Of a DNA stretch of 64,000 nt, positions 18,924 to 31,287 are shown piece by piece; position 1 is the first letter of the stretch, and each line of letters begins with the position of its first letter. Below the pieces are notes generated by a model. That model searched no databases. It worked only from the letters and a program-made list of their open reading frames with translations, and was not told where the DNA came from. Both the position numbers and the translations under genes were made by a program. The DNA comes from an uncultured Thiothrix sp. (GTDB taxonomy: Bacteria > Pseudomonadota > Gammaproteobacteria > Poriferisulfidales > GCA-002705445), in assembly GCA_902595225.1 (NCBI GenBank), contig CACJPG010000002.1, forward strand, positions 65,151 to 129,150, read 5' to 3'.

Positions 18924-20747
18924 ATGTGCGGTATTGTTGCAGCAGCATCACAAAATAACGTGGTAAATATATTAGCTGATGGGTTAAAACATCTAGAATA
19001 TAGAGGTTACGATTCAGCAGGCATAGCTGTTATTGAAAATGAAAATATACATAGTTATAAAAAAGAAGGACATGTTTCTGAACTAACTAGTATTCTAGGT
19101 AAAGATCTAGCCTCGAATATTGGTATAGCACATACAAGATGGGCTACACATGGAAAACCATCTGAAGCAAATGCTCATCCCCATATATCTGAAAATAGTA
19201 TCGCAATTGTTCATAATGGTATTATTGAAAACTATATTGAAATAAAAGAAAAATTTTTTAAAAACATTAAGCTAGAATCCGAAACAGATTCCGAAGTATT
19301 AGCACATCTTATAAATTTTTATGCAAAAGATAATAATATTCTAGATGCTGTACATTCTGCCTTAAAAGAAGTTAAAGGCTCTTATGCAATCGCAGTCTTA
19401 GATAAAAATAATTCTAGCGAAATAATAGTTGCGCGCCATGGCAGTCCTCTTATTATTGGTGTTGGTGAAGATTCTAATTTCATTGCGTCTGATGCTCATG
19501 CTTTAATTGAACATACAAATCAATTTATATATTTAGATGATGGCGATATGGCTTCAGTGAGTTCAAGCGAAATAAATATTTTCGATAAAGATAAAAATTC
19601 CGTAAATAGAGAAATAAAAAAAAGTAACATTTCATTAGGAAGTAATTCAAAAAATGGATTTGAGCACTTTATGCTTAAAGAAATTTTTGAACAACCAGAG
19701 GCGGTTAAAGCAACAATTCAAGACCGAATAATAAATAACTCTGTACCTAAAGAGATTTTAGGGCCAAGTGCTGAAAAATATCTTGATGGTTTTAAGGTGG
19801 TTCAAATCATTGCATGTGGAACGAGTTATCATGCAGCCTTATTAGCAAAACATTGGTTTGAAAAACTTGCTGGAATTCCCTGCCAGGCAGAAATCGCAAG
19901 TGAATTTAGATATAGGAAGCACGCTGTTCAACCTGGAACATTATCCATATGTATTTCACAGTCTGGAGAGACAGCAGATACTCTTTCGGCATTAAGACAA
20001 ATAAAAGAAGAAAAGAATTATATTGGCACCATTGCAATATGCAATGTGCCAGAAAGTTCAATTGCAAGAGAATGCGATTCAACTTTAATAACACATGCGG
20101 GTCCTGAAATCGGAGTTGCATCAACAAAGGCTTTTACAACACAATTGGTTGCCTTAATGCTTTTAATAATTGTACTCGGGAAAAATTTTGAAATTTCGGA
20201 AGAAATTGAAAAATCACTATGTGAACAATTACAAACTTTACCTGAAAAGATTAAAAGCACCTTGGATTTAGACCAAGAAATAGCAGAACTCTCAAAAATA
20301 TTTTCTAATAAGGAGCATGCTCTATTTTTAGGTCGAGGCTCACATTTCCCAATAGCCAGAGAGGGCGCTTTAAAACTTAAAGAAATATCTTATATTCACG
20401 CAGAAGCTTACGCTGCAGGCGAGCTAAAACATGGGCCGCTTGCTATTGTTGACGAAAATATGCCAGTAGTAGCGGTTGCTCCAAATAATGTTGTTTTAGA
20501 GAAACTGAAATCAAATCTTGAAGAAGTTAAAGCACGTGGTGGAAAACTTTATATATTTGCAGATAAAAAAGCTGGATTTAAAAGTGACGAGATTTCTCAA
20601 GTTTTTGAAATCGATGCACCGCTAAATCCTGTCGCTCCGATACTTTTTACCATTCCTTTGCAACTTTTAGCATATCACTGCGCCATTATTAAAGGTACAA
20701 ATGTTGATATGCCTCGCAACCTTGCCAAATCGGTTACAGTGGAATGA
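18924..20747 (+). CDS. glmS: glutamine--fructose-6-phosphate aminotransferase
   Basis: 607 aa with the N-terminal MCGIV nucleophile, two SIS domains, and the canonical C-terminus ...PRNLAKSVTVE. Confidence 0.98.
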   Translation: MCGIVAAASQNNVVNILADGLKHLEYRGYDSAGIAVIENENIHSYKKEGHVSELTSILGKDLASNIGIAHTRWATHGKPSEANAHPHISENSIAIVHNGIIENYIEIKEKFFKNIKLESETDSEVLAHLINFYAKDNNILDAVHSALKEVKGSYAIAVLDKNNSSEIIVARHGSPLIIGVGEDSNFIASDAHALIEHTNQFIYLDDGDMASVSSSEINIFDKDKNSVNREIKKSNISLGSNSKNGFEHFMLKEIFEQPEAVKATIQDRIINNSVPKEILGPSAEKYLDGFKVVQIIACGTSYHAALLAKHWFEKLAGIPCQAEIASEFRYRKHAVQPGTLSICISQSGETADTLSALRQIKEEKNYIGTIAICNVPESSIARECDSTLITHAGPEIGVASTKAFTTQLVALMLLIIVLGKNFEISEEIEKSLCEQLQTLPEKIKSTLDLDQEIAELSKIFSNKEHALFLGRGSHFPIAREGALKLKEISYIHAEAYAAGELKHGPLAIVDENMPVVAVAPNNVVLEKLKSNLEEVKARGGKLYIFADKKAGFKSDEISQVFEIDAPLNPVAPILFTIPLQLLAYHCAIIKGTNVDMPRNLAKSVTVE

Positions 20748-20770
20748 GTTTCATTGGACAGGATGGGTAG
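20730..20770 (+). repeat. repeat R0: the native glmS terminus (core tcggttacagtggaatga) plus right arm gtttcATTGGACAGGATGggtag
   Basis: The right arm immediately follows the glmS stop. There is no left arm; glmS coding sequence occupies that position. Confidence 0.8.
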
Positions 20771-20776
20771 AAAAAA

Positions 20777-21154
20777 ATGATGAATAAATTGATAAAAATA
20801 TTTTGCAATAGTTGTCTTGTTTTTTTAACAAGTATTTCTTTTGTTTTTGCAGAAGAGAATATATCTAATACATCTTGGTATATTTCTCATAATGATGGTC
20901 ATGAATATATTTTTCAATTTAATCCAGATGGAACTTGCCTCTATTTCCAGAAAAATTCTCCCACTGGAAATACTGGAAAAATCTATGATAACTGCAAATG
21001 GGTTAGGAAAAATAAAGTTTTAGTATTTGATTCTAATAATTATTATGCGGTACACATAGGCAGAATAGAAGGAAGAAGTATGACTGGTTATCGCGTATCA
21101 AATCACGACGTAGTAAAAAAAAGTACTTTTATTGGAAGAAGGATAGATAATTAA
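20777..21154 (+). CDS. cassette 1: small secreted protein of unknown function
   Basis: 125 aa with the Sec-type signal peptide ...LTSISFVFA/EE. No promoter module of its own, so probably read through from glmS. Confidence 0.6.
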   Translation: MMNKLIKIFCNSCLVFLTSISFVFAEENISNTSWYISHNDGHEYIFQFNPDGTCLYFQKNSPTGNTGKIYDNCKWVRKNKVLVFDSNNYYAVHIGRIEGRSMTGYRVSNHDVVKKSTFIGRRIDN

Positions 21155-21183
21155 ATGAGTAAACACAATACATTGAGACCGAT

Positions 21184-21293
21184 GAACATCCTGTCCAATC
21201 AAACGAAATCAGTCACGGTGGAGTAGTTAACTTCCGACATGATGGGTCAGTCCTAATTTTACAACCTCAACAATAATCCGTAGTATTAAAAGT
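21184..21293 (+). repeat. repeat R1: type A left arm, core tcagtcacggtggagtag, right arm, promoter-like module
   Basis: gaaCATCCTGTCCAATc...tcagtcacggtggagtag ttaacttccGACATGATGGgtcagtcctaatTTTACA-17-TAGTAT-7-ATG. Confidence 0.8.
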
Positions 21294-21698
21294 ATGAAAA
21301 TTAAATTACTCACAGTTTGTTTACTCTTAGTCACCTTGCAGGTGTTTGCAGAAAATAGATTTAATTGGACGCTAATATCTACCAGCACTGCTGATGATGG
21401 AAATAAATTTTATGGTGATATAAATAGCATCAGAAAGAACAAATCAGGAAATTATGTTGTTTGGATGTTACTTAATAACGTTGAAGGAGATTCTGTTGTT
21501 ACTTCTGAAGAGTATGATTGTACTCGATTAAGATTTAGATGGGTATATGTTGAACTCTATAGTCATCATTATGGAAAAGGAAAAAAAAAATTTACTGCTG
21601 ACACAGAAGAATTAAAACCAAAAGGTTATACTGATTGGATTTATCCTAAACCCAATTCAAATAATTACCATAAAGTTAATTTCGTTTGTGAAAAATGA
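21294..21698 (+). CDS. cassette 2: secreted protein, surface-adhesin protein E (Adhesin_E)-like fold family
   Basis: 134 aa, signal peptide MKIKLLTVCLLLVTLQVFA/E. Pattern W..I...(K)FY.D..SIRKN....VVWML.N...S...EYDC...R.R.....Y..HYGKG...W.YP......VNFVC matches my recollection of the Adhesin_E domain. Paralog of 22605-23003. Confidence 0.6.
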   Translation: MKIKLLTVCLLLVTLQVFAENRFNWTLISTSTADDGNKFYGDINSIRKNKSGNYVVWMLLNNVEGDSVVTSEEYDCTRLRFRWVYVELYSHHYGKGKKKFTADTEELKPKGYTDWIYPKPNSNNYHKVNFVCEK

Positions 21699-21815
21699 TG
21701 ACGATAACCATCATGTCCATACAAACGCAATCCGTAACAGTGGAGTAGTTAACTTCCGACAGGATGGGTCAGTCCAAATTTTACAATTTCAAAATAATCC
21801 GTATTATTAAAAAAA
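21698..21815 (+). repeat. repeat R2: type A left arm, core tccgtaacagtggagtag, right arm, promoter-like module
   Basis: ATGACGATAACCATCATGTCCat...tccgtaacagtggagtag ttaacttccGACAGGATGGgtcagtccaaatTTTACA-16-TATTAT-8-ATG. Confidence 0.8.
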
Positions 21816-22193
21816 ATGAAAATTAAAATATTTATAACTTGTCTATTTTTTTTATTTTCCGCCAACAGTTTTGCAGAATGGACGGAAATAGGCAGAAATG
21901 AAAAAAATGCTTTGTATATAGATTCTGAAAGAATAAGAAAAGATAATCTTGGGCACATATATGTTTATGTTTTGATGAATCACCTTAACGATGATGACCC
22001 CCGCTCTACAATTGCCTATTTCCAATGCGATTGTGATAAATTCTCATTTAAAATTTTGAAGGAGTTTTATCATAGAAAACTAATGGGTGTTGATAGATAC
22101 GATGATTACGCTGAACCAAAACCAGAATGGAATTACATTTATCCTGAATCAGGAAATGAACTGATTTTAAAGTATGCATGTGAAAATCTCTAA
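21816..22193 (+). CDS. cassette 3: secreted protein, Adhesin_E-like family
   Basis: 125 aa, signal peptide ...FSANSFA/E, then WTEIGRNEKNALYIDSERIRKD...YFQCDCDK...W.YIYPES...YACE. Paralog of 26430-26801. Confidence 0.55.
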   Translation: MKIKIFITCLFFLFSANSFAEWTEIGRNEKNALYIDSERIRKDNLGHIYVYVLMNHLNDDDPRSTIAYFQCDCDKFSFKILKEFYHRKLMGVDRYDDYAEPKPEWNYIYPESGNELILKYACENL

Positions 22194-22308
22194 TGACGAT
22201 AACCATCCTGTCAGAAGTAGAATATTCGGTAACAGTGGAATGAGTTTCAATGGACAGGATGAGTCAGTCCTAATTTTACAATCTTAAAATAATACGTATT
22301 ATTAAAGT
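22193..22308 (+). repeat. repeat R3: type A left arm, core tcggtaacagtggaatga, right arm, promoter-like module
   Basis: ATGACGATAACCATCCTGTCAGAAGT...tcggtaacagtggaatga gtttcaatGGACAGGATGAgtcagtcc.... Confidence 0.8.
22275..22302 (+). promoter_or_regulatory. representative cassette promoter-like module: TTTACA-16 nt-TATTAT ending 6 nt before the ATG (predicted leaderless transcript)
   Basis: The same arrangement recurs in R1, R2, R3, R7, R8, R9 and R10, with the -10-like hexamer 6-8 nt upstream of the ATG and no Shine-Dalgarno. R5 has the same TTTACA-16-TATTAT, but there the next ATG lies 33 nt downstream of the conserved attaaag. Housekeeping genes in this window have GGAG-type SD sequences. 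Confidence 0.45.
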
Positions 22309-22584
22309 ATGAAAATAAAAAAACTAGTAATTTCTTTAATATTATTTTGTAATCTTGCTTATGCCGCATCTGAAGAAAAGCAAATGGAATGGATTAATGA
22401 ATGTATTACACACACACCAAACAATATCTCATATGCTAGAGCAGTAGAATATTGTGGTTGTGCAACTAGAAAATTAATGGATCGATTTACAGAAAAGCAA
22501 ATAGATAACTCTTCTGCAGAAGATATCGCAAAGAATAAGTTAATGTCTGATATTGTTGAAGAATGTAATGCTGTAATAGAATGA
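22309..22584 (+). CDS. cassette 4, ORF a: small secreted Cys-containing protein
   Basis: 91 aa with signal peptide MKIKKLVISLILFCNLAYA/A. Confidence 0.55.
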   Translation: MKIKKLVISLILFCNLAYAASEEKQMEWINECITHTPNNISYARAVEYCGCATRKLMDRFTEKQIDNSSAEDIAKNKLMSDIVEECNAVIE

Positions 22585-22604
22585 ACAAATTTTTCTACTA
22601 ATAA

Positions 22605-23003
22605 ATGAAAACCAAACTACTCACAATCTGTTTACTTTTATTTTCTTCACAGTTGTTTGCAGAAAATTTATTTAATTGGACATACATAGCAACGAGTGAT
22701 GATGGTACTAAATATTATGCAGATAAAAATAGCATCAGAAAGAATAAATCAGGAAATTATATTGTTTGGATGTTAGATAATTCCAGTAAAGGAGATTCAT
22801 TAATTGCATCTGAAGAGTATGATTGTTCTAATTTAAGATATAGATTGGTATATGCTGCACTCTATAATAATCATTATGGAAAAGGGGGAAAAATAGGTTC
22901 TTATGACACAGAGCAATTAAAGTCAATAGGCAAATATAATTGGGTTTATCCTACACCGAAAACACCTAATGACTCTAAAGTTAATTGGGTTTGCAGAAAC
23001 TAA
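22605..23003 (+). CDS. cassette 4, ORF b: secreted protein, Adhesin_E-like family
   Basis: 132 aa, MKTKLLTICLLLFSSQLFA/E. Clear paralog of 21294-21698 (ENLFNWTYIATSDDGTKYYADKNSIRKNKSGNYIVWML...EEYDC...). Confidence 0.65.
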   Translation: MKTKLLTICLLLFSSQLFAENLFNWTYIATSDDGTKYYADKNSIRKNKSGNYIVWMLDNSSKGDSLIASEEYDCSNLRYRLVYAALYNNHYGKGGKIGSYDTEQLKSIGKYNWVYPTPKTPNDSKVNWVCRN

Positions 23004-23088
23004 AGATTAAAACAAAAAAAAGAATGGGAAAAGAAAAAGAAAAAATTTATAATATTTAAGATTTTAAAAAAATTATTGCTAAAAACTT

Positions 23089-23457
23089 ATGGATTTTAAA
23101 ACTGCTGTCAAAACATGTCTTATTGAAAAATATACAACTTTTTCTGGAAGAGCATCTAGATCGGAATACTGGTATTTCACTTTATTTACAACCATAGTTT
23201 TTATATGTGCGAATATTATAGATAATGCAATAGATCCGTATAGCATATTTGGAACATTCTACTTACTTTGCTTAGTGCTTTTAATTACGCCTATTATAGC
23301 ATGTGGTGCTAGAAGACTTCATGATATTGGAAGGTCTGGTTGGTGGTTATTAATTTATCTTACAGGTATTGGTTCAATCCTCATATTTATTTGGTCAATT
23401 ATAGCGGGAACCAAAAACGATAATGAGTATGGTATAAGTACTTACATTGGTAAATAA
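23089..23457 (+). CDS. cassette 4, ORF c: DUF805-family inner membrane protein
   Basis: 122 aa with motifs F.GRASRSEYWYF and RRLHDIGRSGWW characteristic of DUF805 (YhaH/YhaI-like). Multiple TM segments. Confidence 0.75.
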   Translation: MDFKTAVKTCLIEKYTTFSGRASRSEYWYFTLFTTIVFICANIIDNAIDPYSIFGTFYLLCLVLLITPIIACGARRLHDIGRSGWWLLIYLTGIGSILIFIWSIIAGTKNDNEYGISTYIGK

Positions 23458-23560
23458 TTGCACTACCACCTCCAACTCACCTTCCATAACGGTGGAGTAG
23501 TTGCTTTTGGACAGGGTGGGTCTGTTATCTCAGGGTCAGTTCCCTATCTATGTTTTACCA
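23458..23560 (+). repeat. repeat R4: type B left arm, core tccataacggtggagtag (V to I), right arm with a 14-nt insertion
   Basis: ttgcactaccacctccaactcaccttccataacggtggagtag ttgcttTTGGACAGGGTGGgtctgttatctcagggtcagttcc.... Confidence 0.75.
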
Positions 23561-23580
23561 ATATAGTGTTTAAATTATGC

Positions 23581-23611
23581 AATACTTCGAAAAATTGCTA
23601 TAAAGAGATTA
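23581..23611 (+). repeat. second upstream element, copy T2a (AATACTTCGAAAAATTGCTATAAAGAG...)
   Basis: Shares about 28 nt with 25484-25513 and 27781-27810. Followed by a truncated copy of the atgaaaaataa... start seen at 25514. Confidence 0.6.
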
Positions 23612-23646
23612 ATGAAAAATAAGTTTTTTTAAAGAAGGATCAAAAA

Positions 23647-23973
23647 ATGATAAGTATGAAATGGGTACTTTATATTATTGGTGTATCAAGTTGGATACTA
23701 TTTTTATATCAGAATACTGCAGAGAAATATGGATTCATGTCTGGCACCTTCTTTATGAACGGATACGGATTCTTAACAGGATTAATATCAGTAATTGTAT
23801 GCATTTTTTTGATGAGTGAGTTTTATGATTATTTAGAAATACTAGGAAGTTATTTTTTATTTCTATTAATTGCTGGTGCTTTAATTGGCGGATTGAAACA
23901 TCATGCACAGGGTTTAGGTTTATTTGGTCTTGTAATAGGGTACGTTTTATTTTTTATAAATAAATTTATTTAA
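23647..23973 (+). CDS. cassette 5, ORF a: small polytopic membrane protein
   Basis: 108 aa with 3-4 hydrophobic segments. Confidence 0.55.
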   Translation: MISMKWVLYIIGVSSWILFLYQNTAEKYGFMSGTFFMNGYGFLTGLISVIVCIFLMSEFYDYLEILGSYFLFLLIAGALIGGLKHHAQGLGLFGLVIGYVLFFINKFI

Positions 23974-23985
23974 CATGTTAAGAAA

Positions 23986-24741
23986 ATGAAAACCAAACTA
24001 CTCACAATCTGTTTACTCTTATTCACTTCGCAAGTGTTTGCAGAAGAATGCAAAGGAACAGATAAATCTAAGTGGAATAGTTGCATTGGCATAATAGATA
24101 CTTTTGAAAAAATAGAAGAAACAGATACAACGGAGGTTTGGGGTAGTGAAAAAATAGAAGGAAGATATGAGGGTGGTTTTGAACAAGGGTTATTTACTTC
24201 ACAATTTGAAGAAAAAATTATTCATAAAAATATTATTGTAAACGGTAAACATTTCTCAACCAGCAATCGTGGTTTTATGACTGGAAATTTTAAAGATGGA
24301 GTGCAAATAGGTTTATGGGGAGAATGTATCACTACCAATAACAGGTACAAACAATATAATCAGTTTGAAATTGGTAACTATAATAAACACGGGATTCGTG
24401 ATGGAGTTTGGGGACGTTTTTATTATGAAACAACTGCTTTTGATGGAAGTTTTGAAAAAACAGGATGTCATAAAAAAACAGTAGAATTATTTCTTGATAA
24501 AGAAAATTTATGCTCACAAAAGAAAAACAGTCATTTTGCAAGTTTTGAAACATATCTTAATGGCGAGAAAGTATCGGATTTTAACAAACTTTCTTGCAGA
24601 GGTCCGTCTGAATTTATTAATGGTTGGTTGGATTATATATCTACAATTGATGAAGAAAAATTATATTGTGAAGATACTTCATGCAAAAAACCAAGTAATA
24701 CCGACCCAGAATATGCAGAATGGATAAAGAATTTTGAATAA
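23986..24741 (+). CDS. cassette 5, ORF b: secreted protein with degenerate MORN/YwqK-like repeats
   Basis: 251 aa, MKTKLLTICLLLFTSQVFA/EECKG...W.SC.G. This N-module is shared with 27811 and 35688. Has G.xxG-type repeats (NFKDGVQIGLWGE, NKHGIRDGVWGRF). Confidence 0.55.
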   Translation: MKTKLLTICLLLFTSQVFAEECKGTDKSKWNSCIGIIDTFEKIEETDTTEVWGSEKIEGRYEGGFEQGLFTSQFEEKIIHKNIIVNGKHFSTSNRGFMTGNFKDGVQIGLWGECITTNNRYKQYNQFEIGNYNKHGIRDGVWGRFYYETTAFDGSFEKTGCHKKTVELFLDKENLCSQKKNSHFASFETYLNGEKVSDFNKLSCRGPSEFINGWLDYISTIDEEKLYCEDTSCKKPSNTDPEYAEWIKNFE

Positions 24742-24847: not shown

Positions 24848-24879
24848 ACATAAAAATATAAGAATTATATGAGACAAAG

Positions 24880-25513: not shown

Positions 25514-25678
25514 ATGAAAAATAATATGAAAGAGTGTGAAGGGTGTGGAAATACAGTTGCAGTATATGCTAATAAATGCCCTAACTGCGGTGCATATACA
25601 CATAAAAGTTTTCAAATAATAGAACTTATTTTTGCAATCTTGACAGTCTCCTTCATTGTATGGTGGTTTATATTGTAA
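25514..25678 (+). CDS. cassette 7, ORF a: small zinc-ribbon protein with a C-terminal TM anchor
   Basis: Below the ORF-track cutoff. Hand translation gives MKNNMKECEGCGNTVAVYANKCPNCGAYTHKSFQIIELIFAILTVSFIVWWFIL (54 aa) with CxxC-x10-CxxC and a hydrophobic tail. Confidence 0.5.
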   Translation: MKNNMKECEGCGNTVAVYANKCPNCGAYTHKSFQIIELIFAILTVSFIVWWFIL

Positions 25679-25745
25679 TGAAATATTCCATTACAATAAA
25701 AAATATCCACACCTACAAAATAACAATTACCCGTATCACGAAAAA

Positions 25746-26396
25746 ATGAAAACCAAACTACTCACAATCTGTTTGCTCTTAGTCACCTCGCAGGTGTTTG
25801 CAGAAGAATGGGCGAATATTTATACTAATAGCGGTGATAAACTTCAAATAGCATTGCCTGACGGGTATTGTGATATTACTCAAACAAATGAAGGTAAATT
25901 TATACTTAATCACTTGAATAAGACAAAACGAAATCTTTCTATTTATAAAAATTTTGAAGCAAAAATTGTATATAATTTATGTGGAAAAAAATATGATTAT
26001 CCATGGGGTTATATATTTTTTAATAATCAAAAATATTCTTCTTCATACACACAAACAGATTTAAACAAACTTGAATCTTCCTCTTTCAATAAAACTTATA
26101 TAAATGAAATAAAAGAAAAAACAAATAAAAGTCATGATATTAATAATCAAGATATAAAAATAGAGTCAGTAGATAGACCTGAATTAGTTTGGGAGGACAA
26201 AAATGCACTGATTTTTTATACCAATATACAGGCAAATATTGAAGGGCAGAAGTTTATTGAAGAGGTAACAGGTAGCACTATTTTATTTAATGGTTACCAA
26301 TTTTCTATGTACATTTATGACAAAAAAGGCGCGCAAAATTCTCTTCATAATTCTCAGTTACTTTTAAATGCTGCTAAATCGACTAAAAGTAGGTAA
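25746..26396 (+). CDS. cassette 7, ORF b: secreted protein of unknown function
   Basis: The track ORF starts at 25656. The internal ATG at 25746 gives the conserved MKTKLLTICLLLVTSQVFA/EE signal peptide, so it is the preferred start (216 aa). Confidence 0.6.
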   Translation: MKTKLLTICLLLVTSQVFAEEWANIYTNSGDKLQIALPDGYCDITQTNEGKFILNHLNKTKRNLSIYKNFEAKIVYNLCGKKYDYPWGYIFFNNQKYSSSYTQTDLNKLESSSFNKTYINEIKEKTNKSHDINNQDIKIESVDRPELVWEDKNALIFYTNIQANIEGQKFIEEVTGSTILFNGYQFSMYIYDKKGAQNSLHNSQLLLNAAKSTKSR

Positions 26397-26429
26397 ATTA
26401 TATACTTACTAAGTAGTTACTAAGTAAAT

Positions 26430-26801
26430 ATGAAAACCAAACTACTCACAATCTGTTTGCTCTTATTCACCTCGCAAGCGTTTGCAGGATGGACTGAGGT
26501 TGGTAAAAATAGCAGTGGTACAATTTTTTATGTAGACTTTGATAGAACTAAAGAGCATAACGGTTATAAATATTTTTATATGTTAGGTGATTACTTGACA
26601 CCATATAACAATGTTTTATCAACTGAATATTATATTCAACTTGATTGTAATAAATATAGATATAGACATATCAGTTTTATATTTTATGATCAATCCATGG
26701 GTAAAGGAAACGGCAGAGTAGATAACGAAATGATGAAGTGGGAAAATATAACTAAAGGTACTATGAATTATACTGTTAGTAAAAAAGTTTGCGATCGCTA
26801 A
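26430..26801 (+). CDS. cassette 7, ORF c: secreted protein, Adhesin_E-like family
   Basis: 123 aa, MKTKLLTICLLLFTSQAFA/G, then WTEVGKNSSGTIFYVDFDR...YIQLDCNKYRYR...GKGNG...W.NI...VC. Confidence 0.6.
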   Translation: MKTKLLTICLLLFTSQAFAGWTEVGKNSSGTIFYVDFDRTKEHNGYKYFYMLGDYLTPYNNVLSTEYYIQLDCNKYRYRHISFIFYDQSMGKGNGRVDNEMMKWENITKGTMNYTVSKKVCDR

Positions 26802-26836
26802 AACAATATTAAAATATATCAGTGTTTGATGCATAA

Positions 26837-26945
26837 TTACACTATCACCTCCAGCACAAATTCCGTCACCGTAGAATAATTTTGTATGGACAGGGTGGGT
26901 CAGTCCTAATTTTACAATATTAAAATAATTGGTATTATTGAAAGA
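26837..26945 (+). repeat. repeat R7: type B left arm, core tccgtcaccgtagaataa, right arm, promoter-like module
   Basis: ttacactatcacctccagcacaaattccgtcaccgtagaataa ttttgtaTGGACAGGGTGGgtcagtcctaatTTTACA-16-TATTAT-7-ATG. Confidence 0.8.
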
Positions 26946-27701
26946 ATGAAAACCAAACTACTCACAATCTGTTTACTCTTATTTACTTCACAGGTGTTTG
27001 CAGAAGGTAAATGGACTTCAACAAATAAACCTAATTGCTTAGTATGGGATCCGGCACCTAGAGACGAACAGACTGTTACATGGTCAGGAGAATGTAAATC
27101 TGGGAAAATACATGGCAAAGGTTTATTAACATGGAATTTTAAAACAAATGGTACACCTCAAACTCAATTAAACGAAGGTGAATTTAAAAATGGACGATTT
27201 TTTGGTCGATTTAAATATACATTTGAAAATGGTGATATATATATTGGTGATGTGCATGAGGAAACTGGAGATATGCACGGACGAGGCACTTATAAATATA
27301 TCAATGGTGATAAGTACGTTGGTGAATATAAGAATGGTCTACTTCACGGACGAGGCACTGCTACCTTAGCAGATGGAGCAGAATATGTTGGAGAATTTAA
27401 AGAAGACAATATGCACGGACGAGGCACTTTTACTTTTCCTGATGGAGAACAGTACATAGGCGAGTGGAAAGAAAATGTTATGCACGGACGAGGCACTTAT
27501 AATTATGCCAATGGTGATAAGTACGTTGGTGAGTACAAGAATGACAATATGCACGGACGAGGCACTTTTACTTATCACAATGGTGATAAGTACGTTGGCG
27601 AGTGGAAAGAAAATGTTATGCACGGACGAGGCACCTACACTTTTGCAGATGGAACAAAAAAAATTGGTCAATTTAAGAATGACGAATATATCGGCAAATA
27701 A
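26946..27701 (+). CDS. cassette 8, ORF a: secreted MORN-repeat protein
   Basis: 251 aa, conserved signal peptide, then about 8 MORN units (Y.GE.KN...HGRGT..Y.NGDK). Confidence 0.8.
   Translation: MKTKLLTICLLLFTSQVFAEGKWTSTNKPNCLVWDPAPRDEQTVTWSGECKSGKIHGKGLLTWNFKTNGTPQTQLNEGEFKNGRFFGRFKYTFENGDIYIGDVHEETGDMHGRGTYKYINGDKYVGEYKNGLLHGRGTATLADGAEYVGEFKEDNMHGRGTFTFPDGEQYIGEWKENVMHGRGTYNYANGDKYVGEYKNDNMHGRGTFTYHNGDKYVGEWKENVMHGRGTYTFADGTKKIGQFKNDEYIGK
27273..27686 (+). repeat. 69-bp (23-codon) tandem repeats inside the MORN gene
   Basis: The cacggacgaggcac motif recurs at 27276, 27345, 27414, 27483, 27552 and 27621, an exact 69-nt period. Confidence 0.85.
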
Positions 27702-27760
27702 TTAAATCATCATTACTTGTTAATTATTCCATTCCTATAGTAACTTCAAAATAAATTTCT

Positions 27761-27810
27761 GGAATAAGGAAGAACTATAAAAATACTTAAAAAATTGCTA
27801 TAAAGGAAGT
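27761..27810 (+). repeat. second upstream element, copy T2c
   Basis: See T2b. Directly precedes the ATG at 27811. Confidence 0.7.
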
Positions 27811-28329
27811 ATGAAAACCAAACTACTCACAATCTGTTTACTCTTATTTACTTCACAGGTGTTTGCAGAAGAATGCAAAGGAAATTATTGGGATAATTGT
27901 TACAGCGCATACACTTTTACCGGTAAGTATGCAGGTGATAAATACATTGGCGAATGGAAGGATAACAAAATGCACGGACTCGGCACTTATACTTATGCCA
28001 TTGGAGATAAATACGTAGGTGAGTTTAAAAACGGAGATTTTCACGGACTTGGCACTTACACTTATGCCAGTGGAGATAAATACTTTGGTGAATATAAAAA
28101 TAATAACAGACATGGACAAGGCACTTACACTTATGCCAGTGGAGATAAATACTTTGGTGAATATAAAAATGATGAAAGATATGGACAAGGCACTTACACT
28201 TATGCCAACGGAGACAAATACGCTGGTGGATTTAAAAATGGCAAGTTTCACGGACAAGGTACTTACACTTATGCCAACGGAGACAAAGAAGTTGGTCAAT
28301 GGGAAAACGACGCATACGTCGGCAAATAA
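27811..28329 (+). CDS. cassette 8, ORF b: secreted MORN-repeat protein
   Basis: 172 aa, MKTKLLTICLLLFTSQVFA/EECKG..., with about 5-6 MORN units (GTYTYA.GDKY.GE.KN...HG.). Confidence 0.8.
   Translation: MKTKLLTICLLLFTSQVFAEECKGNYWDNCYSAYTFTGKYAGDKYIGEWKDNKMHGLGTYTYAIGDKYVGEFKNGDFHGLGTYTYASGDKYFGEYKNNNRHGQGTYTYASGDKYFGEYKNDERYGQGTYTYANGDKYAGGFKNGKFHGQGTYTYANGDKEVGQWENDAYVGK
27970..28310 (+). repeat. 69-bp tandem repeats inside the second MORN gene
   Basis: Unit-start codons at 27973, 28042, 28111, 28180 and 28249, period 69 nt. The units starting at 28111 and 28180 are nearly identical. Confidence 0.85.
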
Positions 28330-28438
28330 TTACTCTGTCACCTCCAACTCACCTTCCGTCACCGTGGAATAATTTTGTATGGACATGATGGGTCAGTCCT
28401 AATTTTACAATCTCAAAATAATCAGTAATATCAGTAGT
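28330..28438 (+). repeat. repeat R8: type B left arm, core tccgtcaccgtggaataa, right arm, promoter-like module
   Basis: ttactctgtcacctccaactcaccttccgtcaccgtggaataa ttttgtaTGGACATGATGGgtcagtcctaatTTTACA-16-TAATAT-7-ATG. Confidence 0.8.
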
Positions 28439-28780
28439 ATGAAAACCAAACTACTCGCAATCTGTTTACTCTTATTCACCTCGCAGGTGTTTGCGGCAGA
28501 TGTATTTGTATGTTCTTATAAAAATTATAAAAACGAGACACGTACATACACTTATATCAGAAAAGATGATGGTAAATTTGTTACCTTTTTAGACGATGTT
28601 GAAATTCCAATGGTAAAAACATATGAAGATAATACATACTTACATCTTGTAGTGTCATTTGAAAATTATTTATTCGCTAGGGTAATTAACAAAATAACTA
28701 AAAAGGTTGAGCAAGTGGGTATAGAAGAATCTAAAACATCAACTGTAGATAAAGTTTATGGAACTTGTAAGGTTAGATAA
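28439..28780 (+). CDS. cassette 9, ORF a: small secreted protein
   Basis: 113 aa, MKTKLLAICLLLFTSQVFA/A. Confidence 0.6.
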   Translation: MKTKLLAICLLLFTSQVFAADVFVCSYKNYKNETRTYTYIRKDDGKFVTFLDDVEIPMVKTYEDNTYLHLVVSFENYLFARVINKITKKVEQVGIEESKTSTVDKVYGTCKVR

Positions 28781-28823
28781 AAAAACGTAATCTACTTTAT
28801 AATAACAACTGAGGTACAAAAGT

Positions 28824-29180
28824 ATGAATATGATTGAATCTGTGACTACATGTTTAAGTAAATATTTTACGTTTGAAGGAGTTGCGACAAGACCAGAATA
28901 TTGGTGGTTCCAATTATTTTATTTCATAGTGATAATAGTCGGTATTGTGCTTGATGGTAATTCTACAAATTCCTGGGATCGAAATTATTACGGATATTGG
29001 GAACTAATATTTACATTATTATTTTTTATACCAGCAATTTCAGTGAGTTGTAGAAGACTTCATGATTTGGGTAAGTCAGGATGGTGGCAATTAATTGGGA
29101 TTACAATTATTGGTCTTATTCCATTGATTTACTGGTTTTGCAAAGAGGGAGGAGTTACAAGCAAATATTCTAGTGAATAA
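28824..29180 (+). CDS. cassette 9, ORF b: DUF805-family inner membrane protein
   Basis: 118 aa with F.G.ATRPEYWWF and RRLHDLGKSGWW motifs. Diverged paralog of 23089-23457. Confidence 0.75.
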   Translation: MNMIESVTTCLSKYFTFEGVATRPEYWWFQLFYFIVIIVGIVLDGNSTNSWDRNYYGYWELIFTLLFFIPAISVSCRRLHDLGKSGWWQLIGITIIGLIPLIYWFCKEGGVTSKYSSE

Positions 29181-29288
29181 TTGCACTATCACCTCCAACT
29201 CACATTCCGTAACAGTGGAATGAGTTCGTTTGGAAAGGGTGGGTCGGTCTGAATTTTACATTTTTTAAATATTCCGTATTATTTAAAT
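29181..29288 (+). repeat. repeat R9: type B left arm, core tccgtaacagtggaatga, right arm, promoter-like module
   Basis: ttgcactatcacctccaactcacattccgtaacagtggaatga gttcgtTTGGAAAGGGTGGgtcggtctgaatTTTACA-16-TATTAT-6-ATG. Confidence 0.8.
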
Positions 29289-29702
29289 ATGAAAATTAAA
29301 CTACTCGCAATCTGTTTACTTTTATTATCCTCGCAAGTGTTTGCGGATCCTGATTATAAGTGGAAGTATATGGCAGAAGGAAAGACTTATTTTTGGTATT
29401 GGGATAGCAAAAATTTGACTGAAAAAAATGATAATTATCTTTTGTGGGTATTATATGATAATAAATATATAGAAAAAGGTATAGGTTCTCAGGTTGCGCT
29501 AATTGAAATTGATTGTGCTTACAACAGATATAAGAATATTTACATAGAGTCTTATGATGGCCAAATGGCAAAAGGGAGAATGCTACATAAAATGAGTTCT
29601 GAAGATTTGCCAGATCATGATTTATGGAAATGGACTTTCATGATAAAAAATAAAAATATCCATAATTTATATTTTCTTTCTTATTGTGATAAAAGGAAAT
29701 AA
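29289..29702 (+). CDS. cassette 10: secreted protein, Adhesin_E-like family (divergent)
   Basis: 137 aa, MKIKLLAICLLLLSSQVFA/D, then W.Y....YFWYWDSKNL......LLWVLYDN....S.VALIEIDCAYNRYK...Y.G.MAKG...W.W....YCD. Confidence 0.5.
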   Translation: MKIKLLAICLLLLSSQVFADPDYKWKYMAEGKTYFWYWDSKNLTEKNDNYLLWVLYDNKYIEKGIGSQVALIEIDCAYNRYKNIYIESYDGQMAKGRMLHKMSSEDLPDHDLWKWTFMIKNKNIHNLYFLSYCDKRK

Positions 29703-29724
29703 TTGAATTTTAAGTGAATATAAG

Positions 29725-29830
29725 CCCCCTGTTTAAACAAACGAAATCAGTCACAGTGGAGTAGTTGCTTTTAGGAAGGATGGGTCCGTCCTAATTTTAC
29801 AATCTCAACAATAATTCGTATTATTGAAGT
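29725..29830 (+). repeat. repeat R10: degenerate type A left arm, core tcagtcacagtggagtag, right arm, promoter-like module
   Basis: ccccctgtttaaacaaacgaaatcagtcacagtggagtag ttgcttttaGGAAGGATGGgtccgtcctaatTTTACA-17-TATTAT-6-ATG. The spacer aaacgaaatcagtcac is shared with R1. Confidence 0.75.
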
Positions 29831-30190
29831 ATGAAAACTAAATTATTGATAACCTGCTTGTTATTTGCACCCTTATTAAGTTGGGGAGTAGATATGATTT
29901 CACCAATAAATTTTAATCCAACCCCTGCGAACAAGAATAAAGTAATTTCGTTTATTAAATATAATGTTAAAGAAACATATTCAAGAATTGGAATGGACAG
30001 TGAGTCAACTTTAAGAATGATGGAAGAAGAAGAGTTGAGGTGTTTTAAAGAACTTACAAAAGTACAAGATATCAATTTATTAAAGAGAGTTAAACGACAA
30101 CTTTGCAACATCGGTATGTGCACTTATTCTACTATTCTCATGATGTACAATGAAGAAGTCAGAGCGTCTAAAAAAAATCTTGAGTGGTAA
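29831..30190 (+). CDS. cassette 11, ORF a: small secreted protein
   Basis: 119 aa, MKTKLLITCLLFAPLLSWG.... Confidence 0.55.
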   Translation: MKTKLLITCLLFAPLLSWGVDMISPINFNPTPANKNKVISFIKYNVKETYSRIGMDSESTLRMMEEEELRCFKELTKVQDINLLKRVKRQLCNIGMCTYSTILMMYNEEVRASKKNLEW

Positions 30191-30203
30191 AATATAATAA
30201 AAA

Positions 30204-30548
30204 ATGAAAACCAAACTACTCACAATCTGTTTACTCTTATTTTCATCACAAGTGTGTGCAGAGACTTGGTCATGCACTTATGAGTTTAATGGCGAAACAA
30301 AAATCAAAGTTTTTTCTATTAAAGAAAATAAAGTTTATTCTAATGGAGAATTATATCAAAGTGCTAAAATACTTCTGAATAATAAAAATGTCATACACAT
30401 ATATACGAGTTATCCTCATATTGGTGATGTAACATTTTTTGCAGAAGTTTATAATAGAACCAACAAGAGATTTTCAATGGCAGCGATTAGTGCAATTAAA
30501 AATGAAAAATATGCTATTATTGAGGGTGATTGTATAATTACTAAATAA
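30204..30548 (+). CDS. cassette 11, ORF b: small secreted protein
   Basis: 114 aa, MKTKLLTICLLLFSSQVCA/E. Confidence 0.6.
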   Translation: MKTKLLTICLLLFSSQVCAETWSCTYEFNGETKIKVFSIKENKVYSNGELYQSAKILLNNKNVIHIYTSYPHIGDVTFFAEVYNRTNKRFSMAAISAIKNEKYAIIEGDCIITK

Positions 30549-30569
30549 AAATAATAAAAAGAGGATATC

Positions 30570-30875
30570 ATGGAAAAGTTTTTAACGTCACTAGGCATAG
30601 CAGGTGTTATCTTTTTTCTTCTACTTGGCATTGCTCAAATATATGTGGGATTTCTTGGTATAGAATACTTTTATGGTTCAATTTGGGCGTGGGTTGCCGT
30701 TTTTTGCGCATTTTTTCTACGTATCGTATTTCCTTGTACAATCGGATCTTATTTTGGAGCATTATACGTTTTAGAATGGGAGTGGTATTTTGCGCTAGCA
30801 TTCGCATTACCAGGTATTCTATTTATCCTTCCAGCGACAATAACTGCATTAATTTCATCATTCAACAAAAATTAA
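30570..30875 (+). CDS. cassette 11, ORF c: small polytopic membrane protein
   Basis: 101 aa, aromatic-rich, 3 TM segments, with an SD-like gaggat upstream. Confidence 0.55.
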   Translation: MEKFLTSLGIAGVIFFLLLGIAQIYVGFLGIEYFYGSIWAWVAVFCAFFLRIVFPCTIGSYFGALYVLEWEWYFALAFALPGILFILPATITALISSFNKN

Positions 30876-30932
30876 AATCAGTATTATTTACTTTTTTGGA
30901 TTTGAAAATTAAATTTAGGGAGATGGTTTTAA

Positions 30933-31229
30933 ATGGATAAAAGCATTTTTTGGATAGCGCCATTAGTTGTTTTGGGAGTTGGACTTCTTCCAATGCCCTA
31001 TGGTTATTATTTTCTATCTAGGTTAGTAGTATGTGTATGTGCAATTTATTATGCTTTGCAATTTAACGAGCATCGAGAGACAACATTAGTCTGGGTATTC
31101 AGTTTTTTTGCTATTTTATATAACCCAATTATACCTATTCATCTTGGAGCAAAAGGATTATGGATTGTTGTAAATTTAATTACTGCTGGAGTATTTTTTG
31201 CAAATAAGGATAAAATCCAATTGGGATAA
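30933..31229 (+). CDS. cassette 11, ORF d: small membrane protein (PYGYY...R...NPIIPIHLG-type family)
   Basis: 98 aa, 3-4 TM segments, SD agggag upstream. The motif layout resembles a widespread small membrane protein family. That is from memory and not verified. Confidence 0.55.
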   Translation: MDKSIFWIAPLVVLGVGLLPMPYGYYFLSRLVVCVCAIYYALQFNEHRETTLVWVFSFFAILYNPIIPIHLGAKGLWIVVNLITAGVFFANKDKIQLG

Positions 31230-31238
31230 TATGCTGAA

Positions 31239-31287
31239 GACGATAACCATCCTTTCCATATAAAAACATTCGGTAACAGTCGAATAA
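31239..31287 (+). repeat. repeat R11 (array terminus): type A left arm plus core tcggtaacagtcgaataa, with no right arm or module
   Basis: GACGATAACCATCCTTTCCatataaaaacattcggtaacagtcgaataa, followed by unrelated attattagaagtgc.... Confidence 0.8.

What the first reader, a model, noticed from the sequence alone, without database searches (positions are those of the whole stretch)
20730..31287. Integron-like array of 11 mini-cassettes built onto the 3' end of glmS, with no recombinase in sight
From inside the last glmS codons (20730) to 31287, 21 small same-strand ORFs fall into 11 units. Each unit is about 0.48-1.5 kb and holds 1-4 ORFs. The units are separated by 12 copies of a composite repeat.

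A full repeat copy has these parts, in order:
- a left arm, either type A (GACGATAACCATCCTGTCC) or type B (TGCACTATCACCTCCAACTCAC);
- a short spacer;
- an 18-nt core tcN-gtN-acN-gtN-gaR-stop, which is a copy of the last six glmS codons;
- a right arm TTGGACAGGATGGGTCAGTCC, the inverted complement of the type A left arm;
- an AT-rich module of about 45 nt, then the ATG.

The copy at glmS (R0) has only core plus right arm. The final copy (R11) has only left arm plus core and is followed by unrelated DNA. This polarity is what I would expect if small circular elements, each carrying an attP-like site that mimics the glmS terminus, recombined one after another into the glmS 3' end. Each insertion would regenerate the essential GlmS C-terminus and push older units distally.

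I saw no integrase, transposase, tnsABCDE, Tn7 ends or intI/attI anywhere in the 64 kb, so any recombinase would have to act in trans. The locus is the same safe-harbour site used by Tn7 (attTn7), but the architecture differs from Tn7-family elements and from classical integrons. I am not aware of a described system like this.
Basis: partly seen in the sequence, partly recalled or inferred. Interest (0 to 1): 0.9.

Follow-up and report, generated by a model that had tools for sequence, protein, structure and literature searches.

The report
Serine-recombinase gene-cassette array at glmS
Eleven tiny promoter-carrying gene cassettes are stacked onto the last codons of the essential glmS gene of a marine bacterium. 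They most likely got there through a large serine recombinase that is encoded elsewhere, which makes this an integron-like gene-capture site run by a different enzyme family.

Summary
Twelve same-strand copies of the last six glmS codons (S-V-T-V-E-stop) lie between 20730 and 31287 and nowhere else in the window. They separate 11 units holding 21 small + strand ORFs.

Related genomes show an empty site, arrays of 1-4 cassettes, and contigs that break just after glmS. The "arms" are not one hairpin per junction. They are terminal inverted repeats of each cassette (p about 1e-6).

Two independent measures place the exchange point at the invariant AC of the Thr codon. Core positions 3-6 travel with the left flank and positions 9-18 with the right flank. 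The dyad axis of the arms falls between A7 and C8 in 25 of 27 cases.

The window has no recombinase. Related contigs hold 8-9 kb elements with the same arms and core that encode a small plus a large serine recombinase. In one family the 738-aa recombinase ORF runs across the attP site.

The closest known system is SCCmec/ECC at rlmH. Trans-mobilisation of the mini-cassettes is inferred, not shown.

The parts
18924..20747 (+). glmS (607 aa). Its last 18 nt are the attB core. Upstream lies the usual dnaA...atp operon-glmU-glmS context.
   Evidence: ORF list. It is 76-88% identical to GlmS of L001-L012.
20730..20768 (+). Junction R0 (attL-like): glmS coding, then core TCGGTTACAGTGGAATGA, then a truncated A' right arm. 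There is no left arm.
20769..21178 (+). Cassette 1: one ORF, 20777-21154, 125 aa, with a signal peptide and no Pfam hit. Its two ends are complementary (score 16).
21179..21253 (+). Junction R1: degenerate A left arm, core 21209-21226, A' right arm.
21254..21699 (+). Cassette 2: promoter-like TTTACA-17-TAGTAT at 21258-21286, and ORF 21294-21698 (134 aa, Adhesin_E).
21700..21775 (+). Junction R2: A left arm, core 21731-21748, A' right arm.
21776..22194 (+). Cassette 3: promoter-like site 21780-21807, and ORF 21816-22193 (125 aa, Adhesin_E).
22195..22270 (+). Junction R3: A left arm, core 22226-22243, A' right arm.
22271..23454 (+). Unit 4, a composite. Promoter-like site 22275-22302. ORFs 22309-22584 (91 aa), 22605-23003 (132 aa, Adhesin_E) and 23089-23457 (122 aa, DUF805). 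Its ends are A' and B, which are not complementary.
23455..23622 (+). Junction R4: B left arm, core 23483-23500, and a long-form A' right arm. The arm runs into a relic (23458-23622, '...GQGGSVISGSVPYLCFT...') of the N-terminus of the 119-aa C-terminal-domain ORF of the large serine recombinase.
23623..24738 (+). Unit 5, a composite. ORF 23647-23973 (108 aa, membrane protein) and ORF 23986-24741 (251 aa). The 3' 774 nt are 98% and 96% identical to discrete 865-bp cassettes in L112 and L118.
24739..24810 (+). Junction R5: B left arm, core 24766-24783 (S-I-T-V-E-stop), A' right arm.
24811..25317 (+). Cassette 6: promoter-like site 24815-24842, and ORF 24880-25320 (146 aa, no Pfam hit).
25318..25363 (+). 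Junction R6: B left arm and core 25346-25363. The right flank is C'-like (tgttaaacagt) and there is no A' arm.
25364..26833 (+). Unit 7, a composite. ORFs 25514-25678 (54 aa, zinc ribbon), 25746-26396 (216 aa) and 26430-26801 (123 aa, Adhesin_E). A possible half-junction relic lies at 25462.
26834..26906 (+). Junction R7: B left arm, core 26862-26879, A' right arm.
26907..28326 (+). Unit 8, a composite. Promoter-like site 26911-26938. ORFs 26946-27701 (251 aa, MORN) and 27811-28329 (172 aa, MORN). A possible half-junction relic lies at 27759.
28327..28399 (+). Junction R8: B left arm, core 28355-28372, A' right arm.
28400..29177 (+). Unit 9: promoter-like site 28404-28431. ORFs 28439-28780 (113 aa) and 28824-29180 (118 aa, DUF805).
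29178..29250 (+). Junction R9: B left arm, core 29206-29223, A' right arm.
29251..29721 (+). Cassette 10: promoter-like site 29255-29282, and ORF 29289-29702 (137 aa, Adhesin_E).
29722..29791 (+). Junction R10: very degenerate A left arm, core 29747-29764, A' right arm.
29792..31238 (+). Unit 11, a composite. Promoter-like site 29796-29824. ORFs 29831-30190 (119 aa), 30204-30548 (114 aa), 30570-30875 (101 aa) and 30933-31229 (98 aa). Sub-parts are 87-97% identical to pieces of L096, L087, L098 and L103.
31239..31287 (+). Junction R11 (attR-like): A left arm and core 31270-31287 (TCGGTAACAGTCGAATAA). Native backbone follows directly.

Best explanation
The region is an accretion array made by conservative site-specific recombination at the last 18 nt of glmS. 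The recombinase is a serine recombinase that is not encoded in this window.

Each mobile unit carries, at its 5' end, the right half of the site: (AC)N-GTG-GAR-stop plus a P' arm. At its 3' end it carries the left half: a P arm plus TCN-GTN-(AC). In a circle these ends join into an attP-like, dyad-symmetric site. Its arms are about 20-25 bp and its centre is the AC of the Thr codon.

Exchange at that dinucleotide with the glmS end inserts the unit. The unit supplies the new Thr-Val-Glu-stop of GlmS, and the previous terminus moves downstream. Repeating this, always on the glmS side or at internal junctions, gives junctions made of the P arm of one cassette and the P' arm of the next.

Autonomous family members (8-9 kb) encode a small plus a large serine recombinase next to the P arm. 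The 0.3-1.5 kb cassettes seen here keep only the half-sites, their own promoter and 1-4 genes. Here the cargo is surface or secreted proteins; in relatives it is restriction and other defence genes. These cassettes are most likely moved in trans.

Shown: the anatomy, the polarity, the empty and filled sites, the exchange point, and the presence of recombinases in related elements.
Inferred: that this recombinase acts on these sites, that mini-cassettes circularise, and that they are mobilised in trans.
For: 1. Twelve cores lie only in the array and all keep S-[V/I]-T-V-E-stop.
2. Among 102 internal or terminal junctions from 58 loci, 76 read SVTVE* and 11 read SITVE*, with variation at wobble positions.
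3. A metagenome scan with a right-arm-only pattern found 50 arms. Forty had an intact core and about 7 a degraded core just upstream. Several directly follow glmS genes of different species.
4. L005 is an empty site. L010 has 4 cassettes and ends in the same native flank as L005. L001 and L009 have 1 cassette each. Many MAG contigs break right after glmS.
5. Arm complementarity is within a cassette, not within a junction. Mean scores are 9.6 (same cassette), 7.2 (same junction) and 7.5 (random pairs), p about 1e-6. Reconstructed circle junctions fold into long stems, from at least 6 different sequence families.
6. Linkage: core positions 3, 4 and 6 follow the left flank (z = 7.3, 2.9, 3.4). 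Positions 9, 12, 15, 17 and 18 follow the right flank (z = 3.8, 3.8, 9.5, 8.2, 9.2).
7. The dyad axis lies at core coordinate 7.5 in 25 of 27 strongly symmetric circle junctions and in both real attP sites. A 2-nt crossover at the centre of a dyad-symmetric site is what serine recombinases do (established knowledge).
8. Recombinases in relatives:
   - L131/L136: a small serine recombinase of 195 aa (PF00239 + HTH_7) and a large one (PF00239 + PF07508) next to an A-type left arm and core. The 738-aa ORF is continuous across attP.
   - L138 (Ca. Thioglobus): a 580-aa large serine recombinase overlaps the last 18 nt of glmS, within an 8.7-kb unit that has inverted-repeat arms.
   - L139-L143: small/large recombinase pairs end 25-45 nt before a left arm plus core.
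9. The element with the identical 119-aa domain (P0028) follows glmS in at least 3 hosts. One of these glmS ends is 94% identical to the window's.
10. Cassettes are shared between hosts and array positions.
Against: - No recombinase gene is present in the window or in the 21-kb loci of the 12 related genomes.
- No circular mini-cassette was seen, and there were no hits in viral contigs.
- Canonical large serine recombinases recombine attP only with attB. Repeated insertion needs attP x attL-type or attP x attP-type reactions, which are known so far mainly for Ccr enzymes (established knowledge).
- About a third of cassettes with an A' right arm end in a B-type left arm that is not complementary to it (11 of 43).
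- At least 6 arm families would need either several recombinase lineages or relaxed arm recognition.
- L136 could be a tandem copy rather than a circle, and L131 is a scaffold with a gap.
Confidence: 0.72

Rival explanations
1. It is a chromosomal integron or a CALIN. The junctions would be attC hairpins recombined by an IntI tyrosine integrase, with the glmS end acting as attI.
For: It is an array of small, same-strand cassettes at a fixed site with no recombinase inside the array. Inverted-repeat arms are present.
Against: The arms of one junction are no more complementary than random pairs, so there is no attC-like hairpin in the array. The exchange point lies at the centre of the site and not at the base of a stem. 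No tyrosine-recombinase motif was found in the window or in about 60 related loci. Cassettes carry their own promoter-like module. There are no R/L box consensus sequences. Related elements encode serine recombinases next to the site.
Confidence: 0.04
2. The small units are only decayed remnants of successive insertions of full 8-9 kb recombinase-encoding elements. Internal deletions left them behind, and they are no longer mobile.
For: The A-type arms are homologous to the recombinase coding sequence on both sides of attP. The window holds a relic of the C-terminal-domain ORF at 23458-23622. Several window units are composites with lost junctions. No circles were seen.
Against: Near-identical small cassettes with both arms intact occur at different array positions and next to glmS genes of different species, for example L010/L102 at 97.8%. 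Of 80 units, 48 are under 1 kb, and many have a conserved promoter directly after the arm. Close relatives with 94% identical glmS ends carry different first cassettes.
Confidence: 0.17
3. The array arose by tandem duplication and unequal crossing-over of a paralogous family of secreted proteins. The repeats would simply be conserved intergenic promoters or terminators.
For: There are five Adhesin_E-like ORFs, two MORN ORFs and two DUF805 ORFs. The signal peptide MKTKLLTICLLLF.SQVFA and the upstream promoter module are nearly identical across cassettes.
Against: This does not explain copies of the glmS terminus with stop codons, the R0/R11 polarity, the empty site, unrelated cargo such as restriction-modification systems and helicases in the same frame in relatives, or cross-species sharing. 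Only one terminator-like site was found in the region.
Confidence: 0.04
4. The cores are target-site duplications made by a transposase or casposase-like integrase, as in CRISPR-repeat or casposon insertion. Alternatively the repeat is a dispersed REP/MITE.
For: Cassettes have terminal inverted repeats flanked by direct repeats, and new units appear on the gene-proximal side.
Against: Duplicated cores would start identical and then decay randomly. Instead, the left and right halves of each core co-vary with different neighbours, with a sharp break at AC. No Cas1, DDE or HUH genes were noted in the translated ORFs of the window or of the related arrays, by eye only and with no profile search. 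The repeat is absent from the rest of the window and is always next to a glmS-type core in metagenomes.
Confidence: 0.03

Closest known systems
SCCmec / SCC / psi-SCC composite islands of staphylococci and the Enterococcus cassette chromosome (CcrAB large serine recombinases, attB in the 3' region of rlmH)
   Same: Both involve serine recombinases encoded as an adjacent pair. Both insert into the 3' end of a conserved housekeeping gene, which stays intact. Direct repeats of the gene end flank the elements. Inverted repeats appear in the circular att site. Complex islands have several att copies and include members without recombinase genes. The cargo is highly variable (PMC6222049; the rest is general knowledge of SCC).
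   Different: The target is glmS, not rlmH. The pair is one small (about 195 aa) plus one large recombinase, not two large ones. Units are 10-100 times smaller (0.3-1.5 kb, one gene with its own promoter) and stack to 11 or more. There are at least 6 arm families around one core. In one lineage the recombinase ORF spans attP. The hosts are streamlined marine gammaproteobacteria.
Integrons (IntI, attI, attC cassettes) and CALINs
   Same: Functionally, both are a fixed capture site, ordered same-strand mini-cassettes, newest probably nearest the site, recombinase outside the cassettes, and highly variable cassette content between strains.
   Different: There is no tyrosine integrase and no attC hairpin within junctions. 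The crossover is at the centre of a dyad-symmetric duplex-type site. Cassettes bring their own promoter. The capture site is the coding end of an essential gene.
Additive flexible genomic islands and tycheposon-type islands (repeats of a tRNA 3' end separating small gene sets)
   Same: Both have recurring copies of the last roughly 20 nt of a target gene between small variable gene sets in streamlined aquatic bacteria. Examples are the tRNA-Lys repeats in Ca. Methylopumilus, with units from 330 bp to 42 kb (PMC10872708), and the tandem junctions of tycheposons (10.1101/2020.12.28.424599).
   Different: Those sit at tRNA genes and are mostly tied to tyrosine recombinases. No palindromic cassette ends or mapped exchange point are reported for them. 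Here the target is a protein-coding end that has to be rebuilt in frame.
Tn7 and Tn7-like elements at attTn7
   Same: They use the same safe-harbour gene, glmS, whose conserved C-terminal coding sequence serves as the address.
   Different: Tn7 inserts about 25 bp downstream of the stop codon by DDE transposition, makes a 5-bp duplication and uses TnsABCD. None of these features is present here, and here the crossover lies inside the last codons.
SSV1-type integrases whose attP lies inside the integrase gene
   Same: Integration splits the recombinase ORF (general knowledge). Here the 738-aa ORF is cut into a truncated recombinase and a 119-aa C-terminal piece.
   Different: SSV1 uses a tyrosine integrase in archaeal viruses. 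Here it is a large serine recombinase, and the detached piece lands in translational overlap with glmS.

Membership tests
Integron / CALIN | An IntI-type tyrosine integrase next to the array (not required for a CALIN) | tested here: not met
   No tyrosine-recombinase box II motif in six-frame translations of the window or of about 60 related loci. ORFs were also read by eye.
Integron / CALIN | attC sites: each junction is itself an imperfect palindrome that folds into a hairpin | tested here: not met
   Same-junction arm complementarity (mean 7.2) equals that of random pairs (7.5). Complementarity is between the two ends of a cassette.
Integron / CALIN | Crossover in the R' box at the edge of attC | tested here: not met
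   The linkage break and the dyad axis both fall at the centre of the site, at core positions 7-8.
Large-serine-recombinase integrative elements (SCC-like) | A serine recombinase (PF00239 + PF07508) encoded by autonomous members next to the att site | tested here: met
   Met in relatives only: L131/L136, L137, L138 and L139-L143. Not present in the window.
Large-serine-recombinase integrative elements (SCC-like) | Dyad-symmetric att site with exchange at a central non-palindromic dinucleotide | tested here: met
   The axis is at coordinate 7.5 in 25 of 27 cases plus 2 true attP sites. Flank linkage switches between positions 6 and 9. This is inferred from sequence, with no biochemistry.
Large-serine-recombinase integrative elements (SCC-like) | Integration leaves the target gene intact, and attL and attR are direct repeats of its end | tested here: met
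   glmS is an intact 607-aa ORF. R0 to R11 are all copies of its end. Empty and filled sites are seen in L005 and L010.
Large-serine-recombinase integrative elements (SCC-like) | The recombinase actually catalyses attP x attB (and attP x attL) at these sites | not testable with these tools
   This needs an in vivo or in vitro recombination assay.
Tn7-like transposon at attTn7 | tnsABC(D/E) genes, Tn7-type ends, and a 5-bp duplication downstream of the glmS stop | tested here: not met
   No such ORFs in the window or in the arrays. The junction lies inside the last glmS codons.
REP / MITE dispersed repeat | Many copies at unrelated sites across the genome | tested here: not met
   There are no copies outside 20730-31287 in the 64 kb. 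In metagenomes the arm is next to a glmS-type core in about 47 of 50 cases. The whole genome was not available.
Casposon / CRISPR-like insertion with target duplication | A Cas1-type integrase, and duplicated target copies that are identical at insertion | tested here: not met
   No Cas1 was seen in the ORFs read by eye. The two halves of each core co-vary with different flanks.

The most novel reading that the evidence does not exclude
This would be a serine-recombinase counterpart of the integron. A small-plus-large serine recombinase pair on a roughly 8-kb helper element captures, excises and shuffles minimal, promoter-carrying, single-gene cassettes at the last codons of glmS in abundant streamlined marine gammaproteobacteria. 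The cassettes keep only the two attP half-sites as terminal inverted repeats. In addition, the helper's recombinase ORF spans attP, so integration detaches a 119-aa DNA-binding C-terminal domain and couples it to glmS translation. This could act as a built-in switch between the integrated and excised states.
Probability: 0.4. Interest if true: 0.85.

Novelty: new variant of a known kind. Interest (0 to 1): 0.72.

Why it matters
Streamlined ocean bacteria have few classical mobile elements, yet they show large strain-level gene-content variation. This locus suggests a compact mechanism for that variation. It is a single safe-harbour site in an essential gene where one-gene cassettes for surface proteins and phage defence are added and swapped across species.

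It would extend cassette capture beyond tyrosine-integrase integrons. It would explain why assemblies of this clade break after glmS. It also points to a family of serine integrases with a short, universally conserved bacterial target (the GlmS C-terminus), a mapped crossover dinucleotide and natural mini-donors, all of which are useful for genome engineering.

The recombinase ORF that is split by integration is a testable candidate for directionality control.

Tried and rejected
- Rfam and tRNA scans of the window found nothing, so the repeat is not a known RNA.
- Four scans of viral contigs, with right-arm, A-left-arm and B-left-arm patterns and with the recombinase protein, gave no hits. 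No phage carrier was found.
- An exact-protein look-up of the window's GlmS found no record.
- I first suspected that a 54-aa resolvase-like HTH ORF in L008 was a recombinase remnant. It sits inside a restriction-modification cassette that has its own arms and is more likely a controller protein.
- I considered hairpin or HUH-type single-strand cleavage, XerCD/IMEX, IS110 bridge recombinases, protelomerase and recombinase-free annealing models. I set these aside once the dyad axis and linkage break coincided at AC and serine recombinases turned up beside the site.
- The AlphaFold model of the 119-aa domain was poor (pLDDT 61). Its PDB matches were not significant (E about 1). They included HTH domains and Bxb1 chains. 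I treat this as inconclusive.
- A PDB sequence search with the 119-aa protein gave no hit.
- Promoter-like sites are not enriched overall in this AT-rich DNA: 59 found against 62.7 expected. Only the conserved position of TTTACA-16/17-TATTAT after the arms is meaningful.
- Literature searches for glmS together with serine recombinase or genomic island found no description of this system.

Full report
**1. Observation**

The window starts with dnaA, followed by the yidC-mnmE-mnmG-parAB-atp operon-glmU-glmS context of a gammaproteobacterium. Its GC content is 32%.

The 18-nt core TCN-GTN-ACN-GTG-GAR-stop occurs 12 times. All copies are on the + strand and all lie between 20730 and 31287. Chance would give 0.37 copies. 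The right arm and the type A and type B left arms are confined to the same stretch.

R0 is glmS plus core plus right arm. R11 is left arm plus core followed by unrelated DNA. R6 lacks a right arm. Spacings range from 479 to 1523 nt, and 21 + strand ORFs fill the 11 units.

Every copy keeps S-[V/I]-T-V-E followed by a stop. All three stop codons are used, and the differences sit at wobble positions. DNA shared with relatives resumes immediately after R11.

**2. Not a dispersed repeat, and variable between relatives**

A GlmS-based scan of species genomes gave 12 close relatives, L001-L012, with 76-88% GlmS identity. They are marine MAGs and SAGs labelled Thiothrix or Gammaproteobacteria, and some lie on contigs of about 1.1 Mb.

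- L005 has glmS followed by native DNA, so it is an empty site.
- L010 has four cassettes and ends in that same native flank.
- L001 and L009 have one cassette each.
- L008 and L012 hold larger units with restriction-modification or helicase genes.
- Five contigs end within about 1 kb after glmS.

A metagenome scan used a pattern taken only from the right arm and promoter module. It returned 44 loci with 50 arms. Forty had an intact core just upstream and about seven a degraded one. Several follow glmS genes of clearly different species. The REP/MITE reading therefore fails.

**3. Anatomy refined**

I compiled 122 junctions. At least six arm families appear (A, B, C/E, D, F, G). In each, a left arm is the reverse complement of a right arm.

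The partners are not the two arms of one junction. Each right arm at the 5' end of a cassette matches the left arm at the 3' end of the same cassette. Mean local alignment scores are 9.6 for the same cassette, 7.2 for the same junction and 7.5 for random pairs (Mann-Whitney p about 1e-6).

Cassettes therefore have terminal inverted repeats. Joining the two ends of a cassette reconstructs a long palindrome around the core. As a single strand it folds with up to -20 kcal/mol.

Pairings by family are A'-A 24, D'-D 3, G'-G 2, B'-B 2 and E'-C 2. There are also 11 A'-B pairs that are not complementary, and I cannot explain them. Eighty units range from 293 to 8667 nt, with a median of 840 nt.

**4. 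Exchange point**

Mutual information between each variable core position and the neighbouring flank gives a sharp result.

| Core positions | Flank they follow | z-scores |
|---|---|---|
| 3, 4, 6 | left | 7.3, 2.9, 3.4 |
| 9, 12, 15, 17, 18 | right | 3.8, 3.8, 9.5, 8.2, 9.2 |

Neither set is linked to the opposite flank. The two halves of the core have thus been reassorted at the invariant A7-C8.

Independently, the dyad axis of the arms lies at core coordinate 7.5. This holds for 25 of 27 strongly symmetric reconstructed circle junctions and for both real attP sites.

A 2-nt, non-palindromic crossover at the centre of a dyad-symmetric site is the hallmark of serine recombinases (established knowledge). 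A tyrosine recombinase with a 6-8 nt overlap would not give linkage that switches between positions 6 and 9.

One consequence follows. An inserting unit supplies the last 10 nt of glmS (N-GTG-GAR-stop), so that half must encode Val-Glu-stop. The left half (TCN-GTN) is never used for coding. It nevertheless keeps the non-wobble bases. This fits an enzyme that reads only those bases of the glmS end that are invariant across hosts.

**5. The recombinase**

Neither the window nor about 60 related loci contain a serine- or tyrosine-recombinase motif. The lead came from a small ORF right after glmS in L012.

That ORF belongs to a conserved family of 119-125-aa proteins with a weak PF07508 'Recombinase' domain. 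In several contigs it starts at an ATG that overlaps the glmS stop (GAATGA), and its N-terminus is encoded by the long form of the A' arm. The window keeps a relic of this at 23458-23622.

One carrier, L131, shows the full unit. In order it holds: core, A' arm, the 119-aa ORF, about 12 small ORFs, a 195-aa resolvase-type recombinase (PF00239 + HTH_7), a 79-aa ORF, a large serine recombinase (PF00239 + PF07508), an A-type left arm and a core.

In contig L136 the large recombinase ORF is continuous for 738 aa (P0187). It contains left arm, core (5488-5505) and right arm. Its last 119 residues are the 'small protein'. Versions of 737-739 aa at 65-75% identity also exist, as do truncated 641-660-aa versions. 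P0041 shows the same fusion.

So attP lies inside the recombinase gene, and integration splits the gene.

The same element, with the identical 119-aa sequence P0028, follows glmS in at least three hosts. One of these glmS ends is 94% identical to the window's.

More distant members confirm the link between this recombinase family and the site.
- In a Ca. Thioglobus genome (L138), GlmS is only 51% identical to the window's. A 580-aa large serine recombinase converges on glmS and overlaps its last 18 nt. It lies in an 8.7-kb unit with inverted-repeat arms, a protein-primed PolB and a tyrosine recombinase, and further cassettes follow.
- In L139-L143, adjacent small/large recombinase pairs end 25-45 nt before a left arm plus core, and arrays continue beyond.

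**6. Cargo and expression**

Window cargo consists of five Adhesin_E-like proteins, two MORN-repeat proteins, two DUF805 membrane proteins and other small proteins with signal peptides.

In relatives the cassettes carry type I and type II restriction-modification systems, helicase-nucleases, HNH and SRA-HNH nucleases and a GIY-YIG-like protein.

Eight junctions have TTTACA-16/17-TATTAT (or a close variant) ending 5-9 nt before the ATG. This suggests each cassette has its own, possibly leaderless, promoter. That step is inferred from position and conservation only.

**7. Mobility of the mini-cassettes**

The last cassette of L010 is 97.8% identical to the first cassette next to a different, more GC-rich glmS in L102. 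Parts of window units 5, 7 and 11 are 96-99% identical to discrete cassettes in other contexts. Close relatives of the window organism have different first cassettes.

This favours movement of small units over the view that they are pure decay remnants. I did not observe circles.

**8. Comparison with known systems**

The system works like SCCmec/ECC. Those use serine recombinases encoded as a pair, have attB in the 3' region of a conserved gene (rlmH), carry direct repeats, show inverted repeats in the circular site, have multiple att copies, and include recombinase-less members (PMC6222049 plus general knowledge).

It resembles integrons in function only. The integron membership tests failed. 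It also matches the 'additive flexible genomic island' pattern of repeated tRNA ends (PMC10872708) and the tandem junctions of tycheposons (10.1101/2020.12.28.424599).

I found no paper linking glmS with a serine recombinase in this way.

**9. Verdict**

The enzyme class and the exchange point can now be named.

Open points:
- Canonical large serine recombinases do not recombine attP with attL.
- A'-B cassettes lack symmetric ends.
- Several arm families imply several recombinase lineages or loose arm recognition.
- Trans-mobilisation is inferred.

I rate it a new variant of a known kind, with high interest.

Noticed in passing
L136 3645-5861 (attP core 5488-5505); L131 1303-9590; window relic 23458-23622: The large serine recombinase ORF (738 aa) runs across attP. 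Integration at glmS cuts off its last 119 residues. That piece becomes a separate ORF whose ATG overlaps the glmS stop (GAATGA). Both the fused form (737-739 aa) and the split form (119 aa; 641-660 aa) are conserved in metagenomes.
   Followed up: partly
L131 6787-7374 with 7734-9590; L139 1685-4014; L140 9420-11659; L137 1555-4748: A resolvase-type small serine recombinase of about 195 aa always sits just upstream of the large one, often with a 4-nt overlap. This is a conserved small/large pair, reminiscent of ccrA/ccrB. Its role (partner, directionality factor or resolvase) is unknown.
   Followed up: no
L138 3076-11743 (Ca. Thioglobus GCA_028370735.1): An 8.7-kb unit at the glmS end carries a protein-primed family B DNA polymerase (PF03175), a 199-aa tyrosine recombinase and a Rep-like ORF, in addition to the large serine recombinase. 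It looks like a self-replicating element using the same site in a host whose GlmS is only 51% identical.
   Followed up: partly
window 21294, 22605, 23986, 25746, 26430, 26946, 27811, 28439, 29289, 30204 (ORF starts): Ten otherwise unrelated cassette ORFs share an almost identical signal peptide, MKTKLLTICLLLF(T/S)SQVFA, at the DNA level (family D2). Some also share the upstream promoter module. This suggests exchange or reuse of a 5' module between cassettes.
   Followed up: no
window 25462-25520 and 27759-27817 (also 23560-23617): A second shared upstream module begins with (T/C)TGGAAT(G/A)AGGAA. It looks like the right half of a core plus a 'ggaag' type arm. It may mark decayed junctions inside units 7 and 8, in which case the array once had more than 11 cassettes.
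   Followed up: partly
window junctions R4-R9 and 11 metagenomic cassettes: Type B left arms usually end cassettes that begin with an A' right arm, although B is not complementary to A'. The reverse complement of B (TTGGAGGTGATAGTG) resembles A' (TTGGACAGGATGGGTCAGT) with indels. It might be a shorter half-site type. This is unexplained.
   Followed up: partly
core, e.g. window 29203-29222: The core is itself a small imperfect palindrome, TCC(G/A)T-NACN-GTGGA, centred on the AC. The Val-to-Ile variant (GTN to ATN), seen in 15 of 102 non-coding copies, improves this symmetry.
   Followed up: no
L002, L003, L004, L006, L011, L125, L128 (contig ends): Short-read MAG and SAG contigs of this clade repeatedly end within about 1 kb after glmS. 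The array is a systematic assembly breakpoint, so it is probably under-represented in genome bins.
   Followed up: no
window 31640-31670 versus L001 12290-12345: In L001 a B left arm plus core sits between 'aataattaca' and 'agat..atcaaatccctcaaac'. In the window those two sequences are directly joined. This could be a secondary or older site, or a deletion.
   Followed up: no
window 33100-39600: Downstream of the array the backbone still carries many small ORFs with signal peptides, including a MORN protein at 35688-36005. Their homologues in L005, L010 and L012 lie in a different order. The region beyond the array is also rearranged between relatives.
   Followed up: no
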